Shown here piece by piece: positions 1,511-26,048 of a stretch of DNA of 32,000 bases (positions within the stretch are counted from its first letter, which is position 1; every line of letters begins with the position of its first letter). This DNA comes from Caldimicrobium thiodismutans. Its GTDB lineage: Bacteria > Desulfobacterota > Thermodesulfobacteria > Thermodesulfobacteriales > Thermodesulfobacteriaceae. The notes beneath the pieces are model-generated. The model did not search any database. It was not told where the DNA came from and saw only the letters and a list, made by a program, of their open reading frames with translations. The position numbers and the translations under genes were made by a program. The stretch spans positions 510,001-542,000 of the forward strand of contig NZ_AP014945.1 of NCBI RefSeq assembly GCF_001548275.1, written 5' to 3'.

Positions 1511-1715
1511 CTGCATAAGTTTTTATTCTTTCAAGGTGCATAGGTTCATATCCTTAGAAGAAAAAGAAAGGGTGGTAAAAAAGCCCCATGTAGGGGTCTA
1601 AAATTTTAAACCTCTACTTAAGGAAAGATTTTGCAGATTATTTATCCTTTCTTTCCAAAGGGGAATGGGCATAGTGTCCATAGAGTCTCAAAAGATATGG
1701 ACTTATACACACCTC

Positions 1716-5472: not shown

Positions 5473-6996
5473 TTGCTTGAAGATAGACTTGAGGCCTTTT
5501 TTCAAAAATTATACTCTAAATTAAAAGAGTATTCCTTTGAGCCCTATCTTGAAGAGGAAGGAACAGCGGTCTCTGTAGGAGATGATATCGTCTTTTTGAG
5601 GGGTTTACCGAATGCTACACTTTTTGAGCTTGTTGTCTTTGAGAGAGAGGATACAGGGCTTATTTTTGACCTTGATGTAGAAACCGCAGGAGTTGTTCTT
5701 TTACAAAAAAGGGGGGGTATTAAAGCCGGAGATAAGGCCTATCGCACTGGAAGAATGGTTTCTGTTCCCGTAGGAGAGTTTATCCTTGGCAAGGTATTAG
5801 ATGGATTGGGTAGTCCTCTGGAAGAAGAGTTTTCGAGGAAGATAGAAATTTATTATCCTGTGGAAAGGGAAGCCCCACCTCTCCTCCATAGAGACTTTGT
5901 AAGAGAACCATTATATACAGGTATTACAGTCATTGATGCTCTAATACCAATTGGAAGAGGACAAAGGGAGTTAATCCTTGGAGACCCAGCTACAGGGAAA
6001 ACTGCCTTAGCTGTTGACACTGTTGTTAATCAGAAAAAAAGTGATGTTATTTCTATATATGTCTCTATCGGACAAAAGCGGGAGCACATACAAAGAGTTT
6101 ATCAATTTATTGCCAATTATGGAGACCTCTCTAAAACCATTTTTCTTAAAGTTGAGGCTGGTGAACCCTTAGGTCTTCAATATCTTGCACCTTATACCGC
6201 TACAGCAATAGCTGAATTCCTTAGGGACAAAGGAAAAAGTGTTCTAATTATTTATGATGACCTAACTAAACATGCCAGTAGCTATAGATCTTTAAGTCTT
6301 TTACTTAAAAGACCACCAGGCCGAGAGGCCTTTCCAGGTGACATCTTTTATTTACATTCTCGTCTTCTTGAAAGGGCAGGAAAACTTAAGGACGAGCTTG
6401 GAGGTGGCTCTATCACTGCTTTGCCTATAGTGGAAACTCAGCAGGGAAATATTTCAGCCTTTATTCCTACTAATTTAATCTCCATTACCGATGGCCAGAT
6501 TTACTTAGATGTTGAGCTTTTTAACAAAAATATTAGGCCTGCTGTGGATGTAGGAAAATCCGTATCCCGCATTGGAGGTAAGGCTCAAGTCCCTATTATG
6601 AAAGAAGTGGCAGGTAAATTAAAAATAGAGTATGCCCAGTTTCTGGAAAAAGAAATATTTACCAAATTTGGCATGAAATTAGAAGAGGAGACCCTTAAAC
6701 TCATTCAGAGGGGACACCGATATAGAGAAATCTTTAAACAAAAACCTCTTCACCCTCGCTCTCTTGAAGAGCATATTCTACATTTAATGCTCGTAGATAC
6801 AGGAGTGCTTGATGAAGTCCCCCTTGAAAAAGTTACAGAGATTTCTTCAACTCTGATAAAAAAGTTGCAAGAAAGCCTACCTGAAATTACAAAAAACATT
6901 AAAACCCTTGGCAGGCTTACAACAAAAGAAAGGGAAATTATCAAAAAATTCTTTAGCAATCTCTTTCAAGAACTCTATGCTGGCCAAAGAGATTGA
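5473..6996 (+). CDS. atpA: ATPase subunit alpha
   Basis: 507 aa with a TTG start. Walker A GDPATGKTALAVD, and PGREAFPGDIFYLHSRLLERA. Confidence 0.92.
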   Translation: MLEDRLEAFFQKLYSKLKEYSFEPYLEEEGTAVSVGDDIVFLRGLPNATLFELVVFEREDTGLIFDLDVETAGVVLLQKRGGIKAGDKAYRTGRMVSVPVGEFILGKVLDGLGSPLEEEFSRKIEIYYPVEREAPPLLHRDFVREPLYTGITVIDALIPIGRGQRELILGDPATGKTALAVDTVVNQKKSDVISIYVSIGQKREHIQRVYQFIANYGDLSKTIFLKVEAGEPLGLQYLAPYTATAIAEFLRDKGKSVLIIYDDLTKHASSYRSLSLLLKRPPGREAFPGDIFYLHSRLLERAGKLKDELGGGSITALPIVETQQGNISAFIPTNLISITDGQIYLDVELFNKNIRPAVDVGKSVSRIGGKAQVPIMKEVAGKLKIEYAQFLEKEIFTKFGMKLEEETLKLIQRGHRYREIFKQKPLHPRSLEEHILHLMLVDTGVLDEVPLEKVTEISSTLIKKLQESLPEITKNIKTLGRLTTKEREIIKKFFSNLFQELYAGQRD

Positions 6997-12384: not shown

Positions 12385-12727
12385 AATTTAACCCCCTCCT
12401 GCAATTTTTTATAAAAATGATATTGATTTGTTTTTTTTAAGTCAAATTTTAAAAATTTTAACTTATACCAGAAAAAGAAAATATTAAAAATTTTTGCTTT
12501 AAAATTTTTTCATAATCTTAAATTTCCGTTTAAAATCTTAATAAAGTCTTTATAAGTTTTTTTATCTAAGTTCCCCACCTTCCAAGAAACAGGAAGAGTA
12601 ATAAAAAGAAACTGAAAAATTAAAAGGTTTGCCTGAGCCTGTCTATAGCAGACAGAGGTTCAAGTTTTTAAATTTCCTACAATTCATTAAAAAAGATTGC
12701 ATAGCGGGAGTTGAAAAAGGCAGTTTA

Positions 12728-12754
12728 AGTCTCAAAAGATATGGACGCATACAC
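12728..12754 (+). promoter_or_regulatory. Conserved 27-bp box, copy d (AGTCTCAAAAGATATGGACGCATACAC)
   Basis: Followed after 4 nt by TTGACA (12759-12764). It lies 64 nt before the TetR ATG. Confidence 0.6.
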
Positions 12755-13597: not shown

Positions 13598-13634
13598 AGA
13601 GGTGAAAGGAAAAGTATTAGAAAAAAATCTCTTT

Positions 13635-13661
13635 AGTCTCAAAAGATATAGACGCCTACAA
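13635..13661 (+). promoter_or_regulatory. Conserved 27-bp box, copy e (AGTCTCAAAAGATATAGACGCCTACAA)
   Basis: Followed after 4 nt by TTTTAA/CTTTTA, then TATAAT at 13688-13693. It lies 41 nt before the ftsE ATG. Confidence 0.55.
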
Positions 13662-16713: not shown

Positions 16714-17631
16714 ATGGCAAAAGATTACTATACAGTTCTTGGTGTCCCCCGAAATGCAACTCAAGAGGAGATAAAAAAGGCTTACCGCAAACTGGCTATG
16801 AAATATCACCCTGACAAAAATAAGGGTAACAAAGAGGCGGAGGAAAAGTTTAAGGAAATAAATGAGGCTTATGCGGTGCTTTCTGATCCTGAAAAAAGGA
16901 AAATTTATGACCTTTATGGCTCTTCAGAATTTGAAAGACGCTACACCCAGGAGGATATTTTTAAAGATTTTGATTTTGAAAGCACCTTAAGAGACATCGG
17001 CATAGATCTTTCAAGTTTCTTCAGAAGATCAAAGGGGGGCAAAGGAAAGGTTTTTACCTTTAACCTTGGAGATCTTTTTAACAACTTATTTGGCACCTCC
17101 TTTGGAGAAGAGAGTTATTCTCCCTTTGGTGAAGTATTTGAAACCTATCAGGTGGATTTACCTTTGACCCTGGAAGAAGTCATAAAAGGTGGGGAAAAGG
17201 AGGTTTTTCTACCTGATACCTATGAAACAATAAAGATAAAACTTCCTCAAAATATCAGGGAGGGCAGTATTCTTAAAGTTAAAAAGAAAACAGGAAATAA
17301 AATTAGAGAATATCACTTGAGGGTGCGTCTTCTCACCCCAGAGGGTATAAAAATTGATAACTCCGATCTTTATATTGAAAAAGAAATCCCTGTGACAACC
17401 TTTTTCTTAGGTGGCGAGGTTGAAATTACAACTCCAGAAGGTAAACGCATAAAGGCCAAAGTGCCTGCTATGACTAAACCCGGGGCTAAACTTAGATTAA
17501 AGGGGCTGGGTCTACCAAAAACCGGGGTCTCAAGAGGCGATTTATTTGTAGTATTACAACCCTCTATTCCAAAAAGAATAAACCCTGACCAAAGGGAACT
17601 TCTTGAAAAACTCAGGGCTTTAGGTCTATAA
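16714..17631 (+). CDS. cbpA: CbpA-like J-domain co-chaperone (DnaJ without a zinc finger)
   Basis: 305 aa. J domain DYYTVLGV...KYHPDKN, no CxxCxGxG repeats, and DnaJ C-terminal beta domains. Strong SD (GAAGGAGGGG). Confidence 0.85.
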
Positions 17632-17675
17632 ATTTCTAAATGCTTCTTCAGAAATGTGAAATTTTAAAATTCATC

Positions 17676-17724
17676 CTGCATAAGTTCATATCCTTACAAG
17701 AAAAAGGAAGTGGGGTAAAAGGGG
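17676..17724 (+). repeat. Left (M1) half of a mosaic repeat copy split by the IS110 element
   Basis: CTGCATAAGTTCATATCCTTACAAGAAAAAGGAAGTGGGGTAAAAGGGG corresponds to 1536-1583. The matching M2-M3 half resumes at 19349. Confidence 0.6.
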
Positions 17725-17760
17725 AATTAGATAATCTATACAAGGGAGGTTATACAAGTC

Positions 17761-17790
17761 TGAAAGTAACACAGGCAATCTTGCCTGTGG
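17761..17790. repeat. Subterminal 30-bp hairpin module (TGAAAGTAACACAGGCAATCTTGCCTGTGG)
   Basis: Perfect 8-bp stem CACAGGCA/TGCCTGTG at 17770-17789, 7 nt beyond the transposase stop codon. It is paralogous to 19290-19319. Confidence 0.6.
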
Positions 17791-17796
17791 AGTCAA

Positions 17797-19023
17797 CTAT
17801 GAAAAATTATAAGCATAGTAAAAACCTCCTTGAGAAGGAATATTATGATAAGTAGTAGAAGGATCAAAATATTTTTTATATTTGAGAAGTGCATAAATAA
17901 TTCTCAAAAGTTTATGAGCGGTGGCCAAAACCGCTTTTTTATAAGGCAATCCTTGTCTTTTTCTCCTCTCAAAATAGCTCCAGAATATAGGATTGTGTCT
18001 GATTACATTAATACTCATAAGCCATACAACCCTTCTCAAATGCCTATTTCCTCGTTTAGAAATCTTGCTCTTTCCTTTAAAGTTTCCAGATTCATAAACA
18101 GCAGGATCAAGTCCTGCATAGGCAATCAATTGTTTGTAAGATTGAAATCTCTTTATATCTTGAATTTCAGCAAGAAAATGAAGCGCTGTAATTTCTCCAA
18201 TTCCCTCAATAGAAAGGAGGATATCAAGGTCCTGGCAAGCGGAAATCTCTTTACAAGCGGATTTAAGAAGTTTTTCAATTTCTTTAAGGGTTTCCTGAAG
18301 GAAGAAGAGTTCTTGAATGGTTCTGGAAAGAATATATTCTTTTGCGGGCCAATTTTGAGCTATAGAATATTCAGCAAGGGCTTTTATTTCTTTAGCAGAA
18401 ATGGCGGGTTTTTTACCTTTTTGAGAGGAGAGTATATTTTCAATTTCCTCAAGAGAGGCTTTTTTAATAGCTTTAGCAGAGGGGAATTTTTCAAGAAGTT
18501 TAAGAATGGAGGTATTGTAGATATTGACGGTTCTTTCAAGTTCAGGGAAGGTAACGACCACAAGTTTTTCGAGGTTATTTTTTCTTTTAGCGATTTCTTG
18601 AGAAATTCTTTCTCTTTCTCTGGCAAGGTCTTTAAATTCTTCAGAAGTAAAGGCCTGGGGAGGTAGTTTTTGATGGAATTGAGAAAGGAAGATGGCGATA
18701 GTTTTAGCGTCTATGGCATCGGTTTTGGTTTTTCTAAGAGAGAGTTTAGCAAAATTTTTAATGAGAATTGGATTAAGGATGACGCAAGTGAAGTTATGAT
18801 TAACGAGGTAGGTGATGAGATTAAGATGATAACAACTGGAGGATTCAATACCGATAAGGATGGATTTTTTTAAGCCTTGAGGGAGAGCTTTTGTAAAGGA
18901 ACTGATGCCCTGGTAGTCAAGAGGGTAGGACTGGTTAAAGAGGACATTTTGAGAGGAATCAATGAGGCAGGCATGAAAGAAGTTTTTGGAGACATCAAGG
19001 CCTACAAAGTAGGTGTAGTGCAT
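17797..19023 (-). CDS. IS110-family DEDD transposase/recombinase
   Basis: 408 aa. The N-terminal RuvC-like DEDD domain has YFVGLDVSK, IGIESSSCYH and KTDAIDA. The C-terminal Transposase_20-type domain has LLSIEGIGEITALHFLAEI...GLDPAVYESGNFKGKSKISKRGNRHLR. Confidence 0.92.
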   Translation of the reverse strand: MHYTYFVGLDVSKNFFHACLIDSSQNVLFNQSYPLDYQGISSFTKALPQGLKKSILIGIESSSCYHLNLITYLVNHNFTCVILNPILIKNFAKLSLRKTKTDAIDAKTIAIFLSQFHQKLPPQAFTSEEFKDLARERERISQEIAKRKNNLEKLVVVTFPELERTVNIYNTSILKLLEKFPSAKAIKKASLEEIENILSSQKGKKPAISAKEIKALAEYSIAQNWPAKEYILSRTIQELFFLQETLKEIEKLLKSACKEISACQDLDILLSIEGIGEITALHFLAEIQDIKRFQSYKQLIAYAGLDPAVYESGNFKGKSKISKRGNRHLRRVVWLMSINVIRHNPIFWSYFERRKRQGLPYKKAVLATAHKLLRIIYALLKYKKYFDPSTTYHNIPSQGGFYYAYNFS

Positions 19024-19044
19024 AGGTGGACCTCCTTTTATTTT

Positions 19045-19200
19045 GTTTTAGTAAGGCAGGGGACCTGCTCACCAATCCTCCAACTTGACGAGGGTTTACA
19101 AACCCAACCAACTTATAATGGTTTAAGCAGGCAGGCAACAAACTCCACTGAGGGCTTAAAAGCCCAGGTAAAATGGAGTTGCCCTGCCTTACTCTCTTTT
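19045..19200 (-). ncRNA. Structured GC-rich RNA candidate in the IS110 5' non-coding end (bridge-RNA-like)
   Basis: On the minus strand there is a nested stem-loop, GGCAGG(G)C-AACTCCA-uuuuaccu-GGGCUU-uu-AAGCCC-ucag-UGGAGUU-uguu-GCCUGCC (19130-19188). There is also a hairpin GGGUUUguAAACCC (19092-19105) and a 12-nt outer complementarity between 19182-19193 and 19050-19061. The region is markedly more GC-rich than its surroundings. Confidence 0.4.
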
Positions 19201-19289
19201 CCATGTTTCTATTATAACCCCTATATATGCAAAAACTTAGGTAATAACATAACAAATTTTTCGTAGGAGGTAAATTACACTCCAATGTA

Positions 19290-19319
19290 TGAAAGAAACA
19301 CAGACAAGAATGTCTGTGC
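19290..19319. repeat. Subterminal 30-bp hairpin module (TGAAAGAAACACAGACAAGAATGTCTGTGC)
   Basis: Perfect 8-bp stem CACAGACA/TGTCTGTG at 19299-19318. Relative to 17770-17789, the stem differs by a compensated G:C to A:T change. Confidence 0.6.
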
Positions 19320-19348
19320 TATAACAAACCCACAAAAAATTCAAGGGG

Positions 19349-19511
19349 TATAAAATTTTAAACCTCTACTTAAGGAAAGATTTTGCAGATTTTTCATCCT
19401 TTCTTTCCGAAGGGGAACGGGTATGTGGAGAGATTTAATTTGTGTTAGGTCCTAAGAAAAAATCCTATAGAGTCTCAAAAGGTATGGATGCATACATACA
19501 TGACCTTGTTT
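19349..19511 (+). repeat. Right (M2-M3) half of the IS-split mosaic repeat copy
   Basis: 19351-19421 is nearly identical to 1599-1669. The box lies at 19471-19497 and TTGTTT at 19506-19511. Confidence 0.7.
19471..19497 (+). promoter_or_regulatory. Conserved 27-bp box, copy c (AGTCTCAAAAGGTATGGATGCATACAT)
   Basis: Followed after 8 nt by TTGTTT, then 16 nt, then TATTAT. It lies 62 nt before the hflX TTG start. Confidence 0.55.
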
Positions 19512-24961: not shown

Positions 24962-25170
24962 AATTCAACTTTATAACCAAACATTTCAATATTATTTTTT
25001 ATCTCTTCTAAGGAAAGAGACTCATCCTTTTCAAAGGTAACTTTTCCAGTAGTTAGATCTACTTTTACATTTCTGGCCTTTCCAGTGCTTAAGATTGCCT
25101 TTTCTACTCTTTTAACACAGTGTTCACAGGTCATGCCCAAAACTTTTATCTCAATCTTTTCCATCCTCAA
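24958..25170 (-). CDS. Heavy-metal-associated (CopZ-like) domain protein
   Basis: 70 aa with the GMTCEHC metal-binding motif and a length consistent with a ferredoxin-like fold. Confidence 0.8.
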   Translation of the reverse strand: MRMEKIEIKVLGMTCEHCVKRVEKAILSTGKARNVKVDLTTGKVTFEKDESLSLEEIKNNIEMFGYKVEF

Positions 25171-26048
25171 TACCCCCCCTTTTTTATAAATAGGGCTCCT
25201 ATGCGAACTTTGGTTTTATTTTCAACTATCCCATCCTTAGCCTTAGCACTCAAAAATTTTAAGATTTCCCTTTCCTTTCTTATTCCTATTTTGTAGCCTT
25301 TTGCTGTAAGCTTAAATTTAAATCTCTTCCAAATCTTTTCAACAGGTGTTCTTCTTTCAAAAAAGCCTTCGTAAAATTTAACATTGCCAGGGTTTCCAAG
25401 GGTGTAAAAATAGTTGAACAACAAAAAAAGACCTGGATGAGTTTCCTCTCTAAGTTTTTTAAAAAATCTCTTTTCTATCTCATCTAAAAGGTGATTTTTT
25501 CTAAGGCCGGCCCAACTAACTATAATAAAAAATTTTTGGGCACAATTATATAATCTTTTCACCTCATTTATATCTCTTAAAATAGGAGTCATGGAAACAA
25601 AGACTGTATCAAAAGTTCTATCAGGTTCATATTTTTTCCAATCCGCCTGAATGACTATTATATTTTTTAAGCCTTTTTCTTCAATCTTTTTTTTCAAAAT
25701 GTTGAGCATAGCCTGGGATATATCCAAAGCAAATACTTGTGAAACTTTATCGGCAACTTTTACTGTATAATTTCCCGTTCCACAGGCAACATCAAAAAAG
25801 GTAAAATCTGGCTTCAGGGCTCCGATATCTTCCATTTCCAGAAGAATATCCCTTTGCATCTCCTTATAAAACGAGGTTTCTTCAAGGTCATCATAGTCTT
25901 CAGCTACAAGATTCCAGAAATCCTCTTTTTGATAGATAAAATCCCTTCTTTTAGCTGGGCTTAGTTTCTCCCAGAAAGAGGGCTTTAATATTTTATTTAA
26001 AATAAGATTTTTCCTTGGGGATAAGTTCATTCTTATAAATGCTATCAA
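25167..26048 (-). CDS. Class I SAM-dependent methyltransferase
   Basis: 293 aa with motif I FFDVACGTGNYT. The start is uncertain. The track start overlaps nusB by 56 nt, and the ATG at 26030 is an alternative. Confidence 0.7.
   Translation of the reverse strand: MIAFIRMNLSPRKNLILNKILKPSFWEKLSPAKRRDFIYQKEDFWNLVAEDYDDLEETSFYKEMQRDILLEMEDIGALKPDFTFFDVACGTGNYTVKVADKVSQVFALDISQAMLNILKKKIEEKGLKNIIVIQADWKKYEPDRTFDTVFVSMTPILRDINEVKRLYNCAQKFFIIVSWAGLRKNHLLDEIEKRFFKKLREETHPGLFLLFNYFYTLGNPGNVKFYEGFFERRTPVEKIWKRFKFKLTAKGYKIGIRKEREILKFLSAKAKDGIVENKTKVRIGALFIKKGGY

What the first reader, a model, noticed from the sequence alone, without database searches (positions are those of the whole stretch)
17719..19348. 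IS110-family element inserted exactly at the M1/M2 junction of a repeat copy
Seen: M1 homology stops at 17724 and M2 homology resumes at 19349. The intact copy at 1536-1669 shows that the two halves are normally adjacent. The hexamer AAGGGG occurs at both junctions (17719-17724 and 19343-19348). The interval holds a DEDD transposase gene with a long 5' and a short 3' non-coding end. Established: IS110-family elements insert sequence-specifically, several of them into repetitive extragenic palindromes. The IS110 subgroup carries its guide (bridge) RNA in the long non-coding end upstream of the recombinase. Inference: the dispersed repeat is the natural target of this IS. The insertion separates M1 from the M2-M3-promoter part that faces hflX.
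Basis: partly seen in the sequence, partly recalled or inferred. Interest (0 to 1): 0.65.

Follow-up and report, generated by a model that had tools for sequence, protein, structure and literature searches.

The report
Bridge-RNA insertion sequence, boundaries corrected

Summary
The IS110-family call is right; the boundaries and the insertion point are wrong. An IS-free allele of the same cbpA-hflX locus (L056) shows that the inserted DNA is 1,477 bp (window 17793-19269). GGAG (CTCC on the IS strand) is present once in the empty site and at both junctions here. Together with the single GGAG they form a 141-nt module of two tandem hairpin units lying between M1 and M2. The AAGGGG hexamers flank that module, not the IS.

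The 242-nt upstream end encodes a two-loop bridge RNA with 28 pairs, all kept, five through compensatory changes. Its target loop predicts ATTTTACCTCCAC. The real site (AATTTACCTCCAC) is the single best match among about 61,000 positions of the IS-excised window.

Of eight copies that are at least 99% identical, four lie at this same junction in different loci. One has a hybrid site. Three lie elsewhere, two of them at ribosome-binding sites of genes. Two 82-84% relatives carry changed guides that match their own ribosome-binding-site targets.

Verdict: a new, probably active member of a known kind, with programmed but leaky targeting. Interest is modest.

The parts
17793..19269 (-). Inserted DNA: the IS110-family insertion sequence, 1,473-bp body plus one copy of the 4-bp CTCC (1,477 bp). 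Equivalent placements run from 17789-19265 to 17793-19269, because CTCC is at both junctions.
   Evidence: Virtual excision reproduces the empty allele L056. Homology with five other copies at 99.0-99.3% (two more at 99-100% not compared over the full length) and two relatives at 82-84% ends exactly here.
17789..17792 (-). CTCC copy at the right-end junction (GGAG on the + strand); the first two bases, CT, are the presumed core dinucleotide.
   Evidence: Present once in the empty site and twice in the occupied site.
19266..19269 (-). CTCC copy at the left-end junction (GGAG on the + strand).
17797..19023 (-). Recombinase gene, 408 aa, intact. D10, E60, D102, D105 and S312-G313 correspond to the IS621 catalytic residues.
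   Evidence: Pfam PF01548 + PF02371. NCBIfam NF033542 'IS110 family RNA-guided transposase', 240 bits against a cutoff of 140. Alignment to IS621 8wt6 and ISCro4 9t56. Residues named in PMC11208158. Positions checked.
19024..19265 (-). Left end, 242 nt non-coding, carrying the bridge RNA.
19130..19188 (-). Target-binding stem-loop of the bridge RNA. Left target guide AUUUUACCU at 19166-19174; right target guide GUGGAG at 19143-19148.
   Evidence: Ten-pair basal stem with three compensatory double changes. In an unbiased scan of the left end, the best matches to the target halves fall in this loop in all three guide variants. The real site ranks first of about 61,000 positions.
19066..19129 (-). 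Donor-binding stem-loop. Left donor guide AAGUUGGUU at 19106-19114; right donor guide GUUGGAG at 19078-19084.
   Evidence: Two compensatory double changes in its stems. The left donor guide pairs with 8 of 9 positions of TAGTTGA-CT (6 Watson-Crick, 2 G-U); the right donor guide pairs with 6 of 7 positions of CT-CCTAC.
17791..17796 (-). TTGACT, a -35-like hexamer at the very right end. It forms a promoter only when the ends are joined in a circle.
   Evidence: The joined right-end/left-end sequence gives TTGACT-16 nt-TGtTATGTT (9 of 12 matches, with TG). No such site appears in the integrated junction or in the left end alone.
19246..19251 (-). TATGTT, the -10-like hexamer of the junction promoter, preceded by TG.
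19270..19342 (-). Host DNA, not IS. This is unit A of the target module: hairpin CACAGACATTCTTGTCTGTG (19299-19318), a T-rich tail, then ...AATTTAC before the CTCC.
   Evidence: Present in the empty allele L056. Absent from five copies outside the module: L053, L055, L060, L062 and L064 (L061's left flank is cut off). Terminator-like on the minus strand.
17725..17788 (-). Host DNA, not IS. This is unit B of the target module: hairpin (C)ACAGGCAAGATTGCCTGTG (17770-17789, which shares its first C with the CTCC), a T-rich tail, CCTCC and a 20-nt end.
   Evidence: Present in L056. Terminator-like on the minus strand. Unit B is a diverged tandem duplicate of unit A: 37 of 45 positions identical, alignment score 20.5 against -5.1 +/- 3.2 for shuffles.
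17719..17724 (+). AAGGGG at the M1 side. It flanks the 141-nt A-B module, not the IS.
19343..19348 (+). AAGGGG at the M2 side. It flanks the module and is partly the start of the M2 homology.
17670..17720 (+). M1 part of the dispersed repeat.
   Evidence: 84% identical to 1530-1580.
19344..19496 (+). M2 (19344-19424) and M3 (19455-19496) parts of the dispersed repeat, left next to hflX.

Best explanation
Window 17789-19269 holds one intact copy of a 1.47-kb IS110-family (IS110-subgroup) insertion sequence of Caldimicrobium thiodismutans. It encodes a DEDD/Ser recombinase and, in its 242-nt left end, a bridge RNA with two internal loops.

Inferred mechanism, by analogy with IS621:
- The element leaves as a circle in which the right end (TTGACT) and the left end (TGtTATGTT) build a promoter.
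- The donor loop of the bridge RNA holds the joined ends (TAGTTGA-CT-CCTAC).
- The target loop holds a site reading ATTT(T)AC-CT-CCAC.
- The recombinase exchanges strands at the CT core.

The best genomic match to the target loop is the junction between two tandem 'hairpin + T-rich tail + CCTCC' units. These units form a 141-nt module that lies between M1 and M2 in some copies of a dispersed intergenic repeat. This is why the IS sits at the same nucleotide in four loci. The programmed motif is also the reverse complement of a Shine-Dalgarno sequence plus spacer (GGAGGTAAAAT). Secondary insertions, and the insertions of two relatives with changed guides, therefore land just upstream of start codons of genes on the opposite strand.

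Shown here: the boundaries, the empty site, the copy flanks, the RNA stems with covariation, and guide-target complementarity with covariation. Inferred: the circle intermediate, promoter activity, RNA expression and the chemistry.
For: - **Empty site and boundaries.** L056 and L057 lack the IS at the same locus. Removing 17793-19269 (1,477 bp) restores the empty sequence, and GGAG is single in the empty site.
- **Same ends in other copies.** All nine other copies share ...CTCC|TACGAAAAATTTG and TAGTTGACTCC|... (the 82-84% relatives carry three extra bases, TCC, between the CTCC and TACG; see Tried and rejected). Over the full 1,473 nt, L052 and L054 are 99.3% and 99.0% identical to the window, and L053 and L055 82-84%.
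- **Family.** Pfam, NCBIfam and PDB matches. The catalytic residues are conserved.
- **Bridge RNA structure.** 28 pairs, 100% paired in 5 sequences, with 5 compensatory double changes. No shuffle of 500 reached this, and slid controls gave at most 1.
[quoted passage not shown] In an unbiased scan of the left end, the best matches fall at the same loop positions in all three variants. Left target guide: 8/9, 6/9 plus one wobble, 8/9. Right target guide: 6/7, 6/7, 7/7.
- **Guide-target covariation.** The right target guide GUGGAG, AGGGAG and UAGGGAG track the right targets CTCCAC, CTCCCG and CTCCCTA.
- **Rank of the real site.** It scores 12/13, uniquely best among about 61,000 positions. No site scores 11.
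- **Same junction in other loci.** Four loci with different flanking genes carry the IS at the identical junction.
- **Junction promoter.** It appears only in the circle form.
- **Recent activity.** Presence or absence differs between strains whose flanks differ by a handful of substitutions and small indels (about 97% identical), and copies differ by 1% or less.
Against: - Three copies with the same target loop (L060, L064, L061) sit at sites that match the predicted 13-mer poorly: 8/13, 8/13, and 7 of the 8 known positions. About 580 positions in this window alone match as well as 8/13. RNA pairing as modelled therefore does not explain all insertions.
- The donor-side pairing is less clean: two G-U pairs, one mismatch, and a competing 7/9 match elsewhere in the RNA.
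- No Rfam family matches the RNA.
- Only three distinct bridge RNA variants were available, so the covariation rests on few events.
- No expression or activity data exist.
Confidence: 0.85

Rival explanations
1. One reading: the IS spans 17725-19342, inserted exactly at the M1/M2 junction, with AAGGGG as the duplicated core.
For: AAGGGG is at both ends of that interval, and M1/M2 homology stops there.
Against: The empty allele L056 keeps 17725-17792 and 19270-19342. Copies L060, L064, L053 and L055 have the same IS ends but none of these 64/73-nt pieces. The pieces are 92-97% identical between copies, against 99% or more for the IS.
Confidence: 0.02
2. The IS spread among copies of the repeat by homologous recombination or gene conversion between the flanking repeat sequences. 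Under this model the shared position does not reflect site-specific insertion.
For: All four module copies share long flanking homology (units A and B, M1, M2), which could support conversion. L062 has hybrid flanks, with a gene start on the left and B-M1 on the right, as expected from recombination between two copies.
Against: Copies with identical ends exist in unrelated sequence (L060, L061, L064), so true transposition occurs. The junction is the single best match to the target loop in this window. Flanks differ by SNPs and indels between loci while the IS is nearly identical.
Confidence: 0.08
3. Site choice is made mainly by the protein recognising the DNA hairpin at the insertion point (structure-specific, as in REP targeting), and the RNA complementarity is incidental.
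For: The preferred site abuts a perfect 8-bp-stem hairpin, with a second hairpin 30 nt upstream. A preprint reports that a target hairpin potentiates ISPpu10 (10.64898/2026.03.19.712850).
Against: Five insertions (L053, L055, L060, L061, L064) have no such hairpin at the insertion point. The right target guide covaries with the right target across variants. [quoted passage not shown]
Confidence: 0.05

Closest known systems
IS621 (E. coli), the reference bridge-RNA IS110-family element (PMC11208160, PMC11208158)
   Same: - Same two protein domains and the same catalytic residues: D/E/D/D plus Ser-Gly.
- Bridge RNA upstream of the recombinase, with a target loop followed by a donor loop.
[quoted passage not shown]
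- CT core.
- A sigma-70-like promoter is rebuilt at the joined right and left ends.
- It inserts into repeated extragenic hairpin sequences.
   Different: - The proteins are only distantly related (phmmer E 3e-17; 408 against 326 aa).
- The right end after the stop codon is only 4-8 nt.
- Four bases (CTCC), not two, are identical in donor and target.
- The host is a thermophile.
- The target motif mimics a Shine-Dalgarno region.
- Nothing has been tested experimentally here.
ISPpu10 / ISPpu9 of Pseudomonas putida (IS110 family, REP-targeting; 10.64898/2026.03.19.712850, PMC12288879)
   Same: - They insert at one fixed position of a dispersed intergenic palindromic repeat.
- A target hairpin with a T-rich tract next to the element can act as a terminator or insulator.
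- A junction promoter forms in the circle.
   Different: - In ISPpu10 the hairpin lies in the left flank and overlaps the left target. Here the adjacent hairpin lies on the right-target side, and the upstream hairpin is 30 nt away.
- This target is the joint of two tandem units inside a larger composite repeat.
- This element also hits ribosome-binding sites of genes.
IS1111 subgroup of the IS110 family (guide RNA downstream of the recombinase, sub-terminal inverted repeats)
   Same: Same recombinase superfamily; also site-specific for repeats.
   Different: - Here the long non-coding end and the RNA lie upstream of the gene, and there is essentially no downstream end.
- Only a marginal 12-bp sub-terminal inverted repeat is present: CTACGAAAAATT / AATTTTTCATAG, equalled or beaten by 2.9% of shuffles.

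Membership tests
IS110 family, IS110 subgroup (bridge recombinase elements) | Recombinase with an N-terminal DEDD RuvC-like domain and a C-terminal Tnp (Transposase_20) domain | tested here: met
   PF01548 E 9e-34 (full profile, 1-155) and PF02371 E 1e-27. NF033542, 240 bits against a cutoff of 140.
IS110 family, IS110 subgroup (bridge recombinase elements) | Catalytic D, E, D, D and the Ser-Gly nucleophile loop | tested here: met
   E60, D102, D105 and S312-G313 align with IS621 E60, D102, D105 and S241-G242. D10 (GLDVS) lies outside the IS621 alignment and is assigned to D11 by motif and the Pfam DEDD match.
IS110 family, IS110 subgroup (bridge recombinase elements) | Short core present once in the empty site and at both junctions after insertion, with no long target duplication | tested here: met
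   GGAG/CTCC is single in L056 and double in the window. A second empty site (L059 for L053) shows the same.
IS110 family, IS110 subgroup (bridge recombinase elements) | No terminal inverted repeats | tested here: met
   The termini do not match. Only a marginal 12-bp sub-terminal inverted repeat is present, equalled or beaten by 2.9% of shuffles.
IS110 family, IS110 subgroup (bridge recombinase elements) | Long non-coding end upstream of the recombinase that folds into two stem-loops with internal loops | tested here: met
   242-nt left end; 28 pairs, all kept, 5 compensatory double changes.
IS110 family, IS110 subgroup (bridge recombinase elements) | First loop complementary to the target and second loop to the joined ends, on the strands described for IS621 | tested here: met
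   Left target guide 8/9 and right target guide 6/6. The real site ranks first of about 61,000 positions. The guides covary with targets in two relatives. Left donor guide 8/9 with two wobbles; right donor guide 6/7.
IS110 family, IS110 subgroup (bridge recombinase elements) | Promoter reconstituted at the right-end/left-end junction of a circular intermediate | tested here: inconclusive
   In silico, the joined ends give TTGACT-16-TGtTATGTT, which is absent from the integrated state. Neither the circle nor promoter activity was observed.
IS110 family, IS110 subgroup (bridge recombinase elements) | RNA-dependent recombination activity | not testable with these tools
   Requires an experiment.
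IS1111 subgroup | Guide RNA and long non-coding end downstream of the recombinase; clear sub-terminal inverted repeats | tested here: not met
   Only 4-8 nt follow the stop codon. The inverted repeat is marginal.
Curated RNA family (Rfam 15) | Match to a covariance model | tested here: not met
   No hit at gathering thresholds in the window, and only chance-level hits at E up to 10 in 17600-19500.

The most novel reading that the evidence does not exclude
The bridge RNA of this lineage is programmed against the mirror image of a translation-initiation region (GGAGGTAAAAT[G]).
- The tandem-hairpin module of the host repeat, whose second unit begins with a pseudo ribosome-binding site right behind a hairpin, may act as a harmless decoy or 'safe harbour'.
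- That site also places the element between two terminator-like hairpins. One would insulate the element from upstream transcription; the other would terminate the recombinase mRNA, which has no terminator of its own.
- Real ribosome-binding sites of genes are the costly secondary targets.
- The three target-site SNPs between occupied and empty alleles (L053 against L059) could then reflect host escape.
Probability: 0.3. Interest if true: 0.5.

Novelty: new member of a known kind. Interest (0 to 1): 0.3.

Why it matters
- **Annotation.** The exact ends, core, guide RNA and target of an IS in C. thiodismutans are now defined; until now it was annotated only as an 'IS110 family transposase'. Two stretches of host repeat are no longer misassigned to it.
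- **Bridge recombinase research.** This is a natural, apparently active system from a thermophile. It comes with three naturally diverged guide variants, their matched targets, and two empty-site alleles, which makes a small ready-made test set for guide rules and off-target behaviour.
- **Host biology.** The dispersed intergenic repeat is modular, and one optional 141-nt module is the landing pad. hflX keeps its M2-M3 upstream region. The IS lies 290 nt upstream of hflX and is transcribed away from it.

Tried and rejected
- **Rfam.** Gathering and permissive thresholds gave nothing relevant.
- **Genome and metagenome scans.** Scans of genome contigs and metagenome contigs with the protein gave only one close relative (L002, the same locus as L053) and otherwise hits of 42% identity or less. 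These were not useful for the ends.
- **Exact-protein look-up.** It returned only a 1.5-kb unitig (L001) that ends inside the flanking hairpins.
- **Second copy in the same genome.** P0242 (BAU22624.1) could not be retrieved.
- **RNAalifold consensus.** It proposed a long-range stem (columns 77-88 with 209-220) that competes with the target-loop basal stem. I rejected it in favour of the local stem, because only the local stem has compensatory changes.
- **Ends of the 82-84% relatives.** I first assumed their left end starts at the same base as here. The empty allele L059 shows that their left end carries three extra bases (TCC). This moves the target register and turns the L055 left-guide match from 4/9 into 8/9.
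- **A-IS-B as one larger mobile unit, or A-B as a derivative of the IS ends.** Rejected, because the module exists without the IS and the IS exists without the module.
- **Promoter scan of the integrated locus.** No sigma-70-like site was found.
Full report
**1. What is in the window**

The minus strand of 17797-19023 encodes a 408-aa protein. It carries a full DEDD_Tnp_IS110 domain (E 9e-34) and a Transposase_20 domain (E 1e-27). It reaches 240 bits against NCBIfam NF033542, 'IS110 family RNA-guided transposase', whose cutoff is 140. Its only solved relatives are the bridge recombinases ISCro4 (9t56, E 4e-20) and IS621 (8wt6, E 3e-17).

In the IS621 alignment, E60, D102, D105 and S312-G313 line up with the catalytic E60, D102, D105 and S241-G242 of IS621. 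D10 (GLDVS) lies outside that alignment and is assigned to IS621 D11 by motif and the Pfam DEDD match. The IS621 residues are as named in PMC11208158.

An exact look-up places the window's proteins on a 1,814,952-bp contig. A second, 407-aa copy from that contig is named Caldimicrobium thiodismutans (BAU22624.1).

**2. Checking the observation**

In the 'intact' copy, however, 11 nt (1581-1591) separate M1 from M2.

**3. The true boundaries**

The exact CbpA protein (16714-17631) is also encoded on contigs of two other assemblies. In L056 (GCA_017880035.1), cbpA and hflX are 447 nt apart instead of 1,928 nt. These are joined through a single GGAG. Deleting window 17793-19269 (1,477 bp) restores L056, without a mismatch for at least 60 nt on either side of the joint.

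The same ends are seen in every other copy I could fetch. In recombinase orientation the element begins ...CTCC|TACGAAAAATTTG and ends TAGTTGACTCC|....
- The other near-identical copies are 99.0-99.3% identical to the window (L052, L054, L060 and L061 measured over the whole element).
- The two relatives L053 and L055 are 82-84% identical over the full 1,473 nt, and their homology stops at these ends.
- The 64-nt and 73-nt pieces are absent from L053, L055, L060 and L064.
- Among the copies that have these pieces, they are only 92-97% identical.

They are therefore host DNA.

**4. What the IS is inserted into**

Between M1 and M2 the empty allele carries a 141-nt module flanked by the AAGGGG hexamers. 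The following description reads on the IS strand.
- The module consists of two tandem units, each a hairpin followed by a T-rich tail and CCTCC.
- Unit A carries hairpin CACAGACATTCTTGTCTGTG. Unit B carries CACAGGCAAGATTGCCTGTG.
- The units are diverged duplicates: 37 of 45 positions are identical, with an alignment score of 20.5 against -5.1 +/- 3.2 for shuffles.
- This hairpin motif occurs nowhere else in the window.
- Both hairpins are flagged as terminator-like on the minus strand.
- The IS sits exactly at the A|B joint: ...AATTTAC-CTCC|ACAGGCAAG.... The last C of CTCC is the first base of hairpin B.

**5. The bridge RNA**

The 242-nt left end folds more stably than shuffles. This was measured on the longer 325-nt stretch (z = -4.7).

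I aligned the left ends of the window, L052, L054, L053 and L055. On this alignment I tested a structure of two stem-loops, each with a large internal loop. All 28 pairs are kept in all five sequences, and five pairs are kept through changes on both sides:
- three in the basal stem of the first stem-loop (CAAC/GTTG becomes AGGC/GCCT in L055);
- one in the basal stem of the second stem-loop;
- one in the apical stem of the second stem-loop.

No shuffle of 500 reached this, and slid registers gave at most one such pair. RNAalifold's own proposal of a long-range stem has no covariation, so I set it aside. Rfam has no matching family.

**6. Guides and targets**

[quoted passage not shown] It therefore reads like the top-strand left half plus core. 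[quoted passage not shown]

Applying this rule to the first loop gives:
- AUUUUACCU against the target AATTTAC-CT (8/9);
- GUGGAG against CT-CCAC (6/6).

The second loop gives:
- AAGUUGGUU against the joined ends TAGTTGA-CT (6 Watson-Crick pairs plus 2 G-U, out of 9);
- GUUGGAG against CT-CCTAC (6/7).

In an unbiased scan of the whole left end, the best match to each target half falls at the same loop positions in all three variants.

The two relatives have altered guides that fit their own sites:
- L055: UAGGGAG against CTCCCTA (7/7), and AUUUUACCU against TTTTTAC-CT (8/9).
- L053: AAGGGAG against CTCCCGT (6/7), and AUUUUUCCU against TTCTATC-CT (6/9 plus one wobble).

The register for these two relatives was fixed by a second empty-site allele, L059. 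It shows that their left end has three extra bases (TCC).

I then scored the 13-mer predicted by the window's target loop (ATTTTACCTCCAC) at every position of the IS-excised window, on both strands. The real site is the only one with 12/13. None has 11, and 21 have 10. I take the core to be CT, as in IS621. The following CC is shared by donor and target, which explains the 4-bp repeat.

**7. Do other copies sit at the same place?**

| Copies (at least 99% identical) | Site |
|---|---|
| window, L052, L054, L063 | Exactly the A|B joint, in four loci with different neighbouring genes |
| L062 | Unit B and M1 on the right; the start codon and ribosome-binding site of a molybdo-oxidoreductase gene on the left (CCCATATTTAC-CTCC). 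Its left guide carries one change. |
| L060, L064 | Directly upstream of the Shine-Dalgarno sequence and start codon of a gene on the opposite strand |
| L061 | Outside the module; its left flank is cut by the contig end |

L060, L061 and L064 have an identical target loop but match the predicted 13-mer poorly (8/13 for L060 and L064). The two 82-84% relatives are also at ribosome-binding sites.

The programmed motif is the reverse complement of GGAGGTAAAAT, an idealised Shine-Dalgarno sequence plus spacer. Targeting is thus programmed and strongly preferential for the repeat module, but leaky. The poorly matched insertions remain unexplained. 'Half-match' recombination, as reported for IS621, is a candidate (10.64898/2026.08.31.748434).

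**8. Regulation (inferred)**

Joining the right and left ends creates TTGACT-16 nt-TGtTATGTT. This passes the same criteria as the promoter scan. Neither the integrated junction nor the left end alone does so. This matches the junction promoter described for IS621 and ISPpu10.

The right end has only 4-8 nt after the stop codon. In the preferred site the recombinase transcript would therefore run straight into hairpin B and its T-rich tail. Hairpin A lies 30 nt upstream of the left end, in a position to block read-through. A target-derived terminator has been shown experimentally for ISPpu10. Here it is only a reading of the sequence.

**9. Consequence for the locus**

The IS lies 157 nt after the cbpA stop codon and 290 nt before the hflX start. 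It is transcribed towards cbpA. M2 and M3 stay next to hflX.

**10. Comparison and novelty**

Every sequence-testable defining feature of the IS110 subgroup is met. The IS1111 layout is not. The element is only a distant relative of IS621 and ISCro4. The paper library holds nothing that mentions both Caldimicrobium and IS110, and none of the listed bridge-RNA/IS110 papers mentions Shine-Dalgarno.

It is a new member of a known kind. Its modest points of interest are a thermophilic host, natural guide variants with matched targets and empty sites, and a target that mimics a translation-initiation region.

Noticed in passing
window 1668-1709, 12712-12753, 13619-13660, 19455-19496: The M3 motif (…AGTCTCAAAAGATATGGAC.CATACA) occurs four times in the window, twice without M1/M2. 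It also lies next to the repeat in L052, L054 and L063. The repeat is therefore modular, and M3 may be a promoter or operator-like element upstream of genes.
   Followed up: no
window 1581-1591: In the repeat copy at 1530-1672, the position that holds the 141-nt A-B module elsewhere is occupied by an 11-nt insert (AAGCCCCATGT). With the following AGGGGT it forms a small GC hairpin.
   Followed up: partly
L053 2240-2260 and 3733-3745, against L059 2880-3000: The occupied and empty alleles of the L053 site differ by three SNPs within the roughly 14-bp target (CATTTCTATCCTCCC against CATTTTTATTCTCCA). The next 120 nt or so to the right are identical. This could be host escape or allele-specific insertion.
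   Followed up: partly
L062 2230-2260 and 3733-3850: This copy has hybrid flanks: a gene ribosome-binding site and start codon on the left, and unit B plus M1 on the right. Its left target guide carries a single change (AUUUCACCU). Either a B unit naturally lies directly upstream of that gene, or two IS copies recombined.
   Followed up: partly
L060 2249-2258; L064 594-603; L053 2245-2255; L055 472-482: Insertions outside the repeat module lie immediately upstream of the Shine-Dalgarno sequence of a gene on the opposite strand. The gene keeps its ribosome-binding site but is cut off from whatever lay upstream.
   Followed up: partly
L061 1990-3231 and L064 2515-3756: Two of the off-module copies have a 413-aa rve-integrase gene (from another mobile element) within about 450-520 bp downstream. 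These insertions may be into or next to another IS.
   Followed up: no
window 19254-19265 and 17797-17808 (minus strand): A 12-bp imperfect sub-terminal inverted repeat, CTACGAAAAATT / AATTTTTCATAG, matches at 11 of 12 positions. The second arm covers the last codons of the recombinase gene. It is only marginally above chance (equalled or beaten by 2.9% of shuffles).
   Followed up: partly
window 5700-5730 and 25160-25190: A 31-nt inverted repeat pair, 84% complementary, contains AAAAAAGGGGGGGTATTAAAG. It is unrelated to the finding.
   Followed up: no
window 17797-19023, compared with L052, L054 and L060-L064: The window's copy is 3 nt longer than the other near-identical copies (408 against 407 aa; IS of 1,477 against 1,474 bp, or 1,472 in L054).
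   Followed up: no
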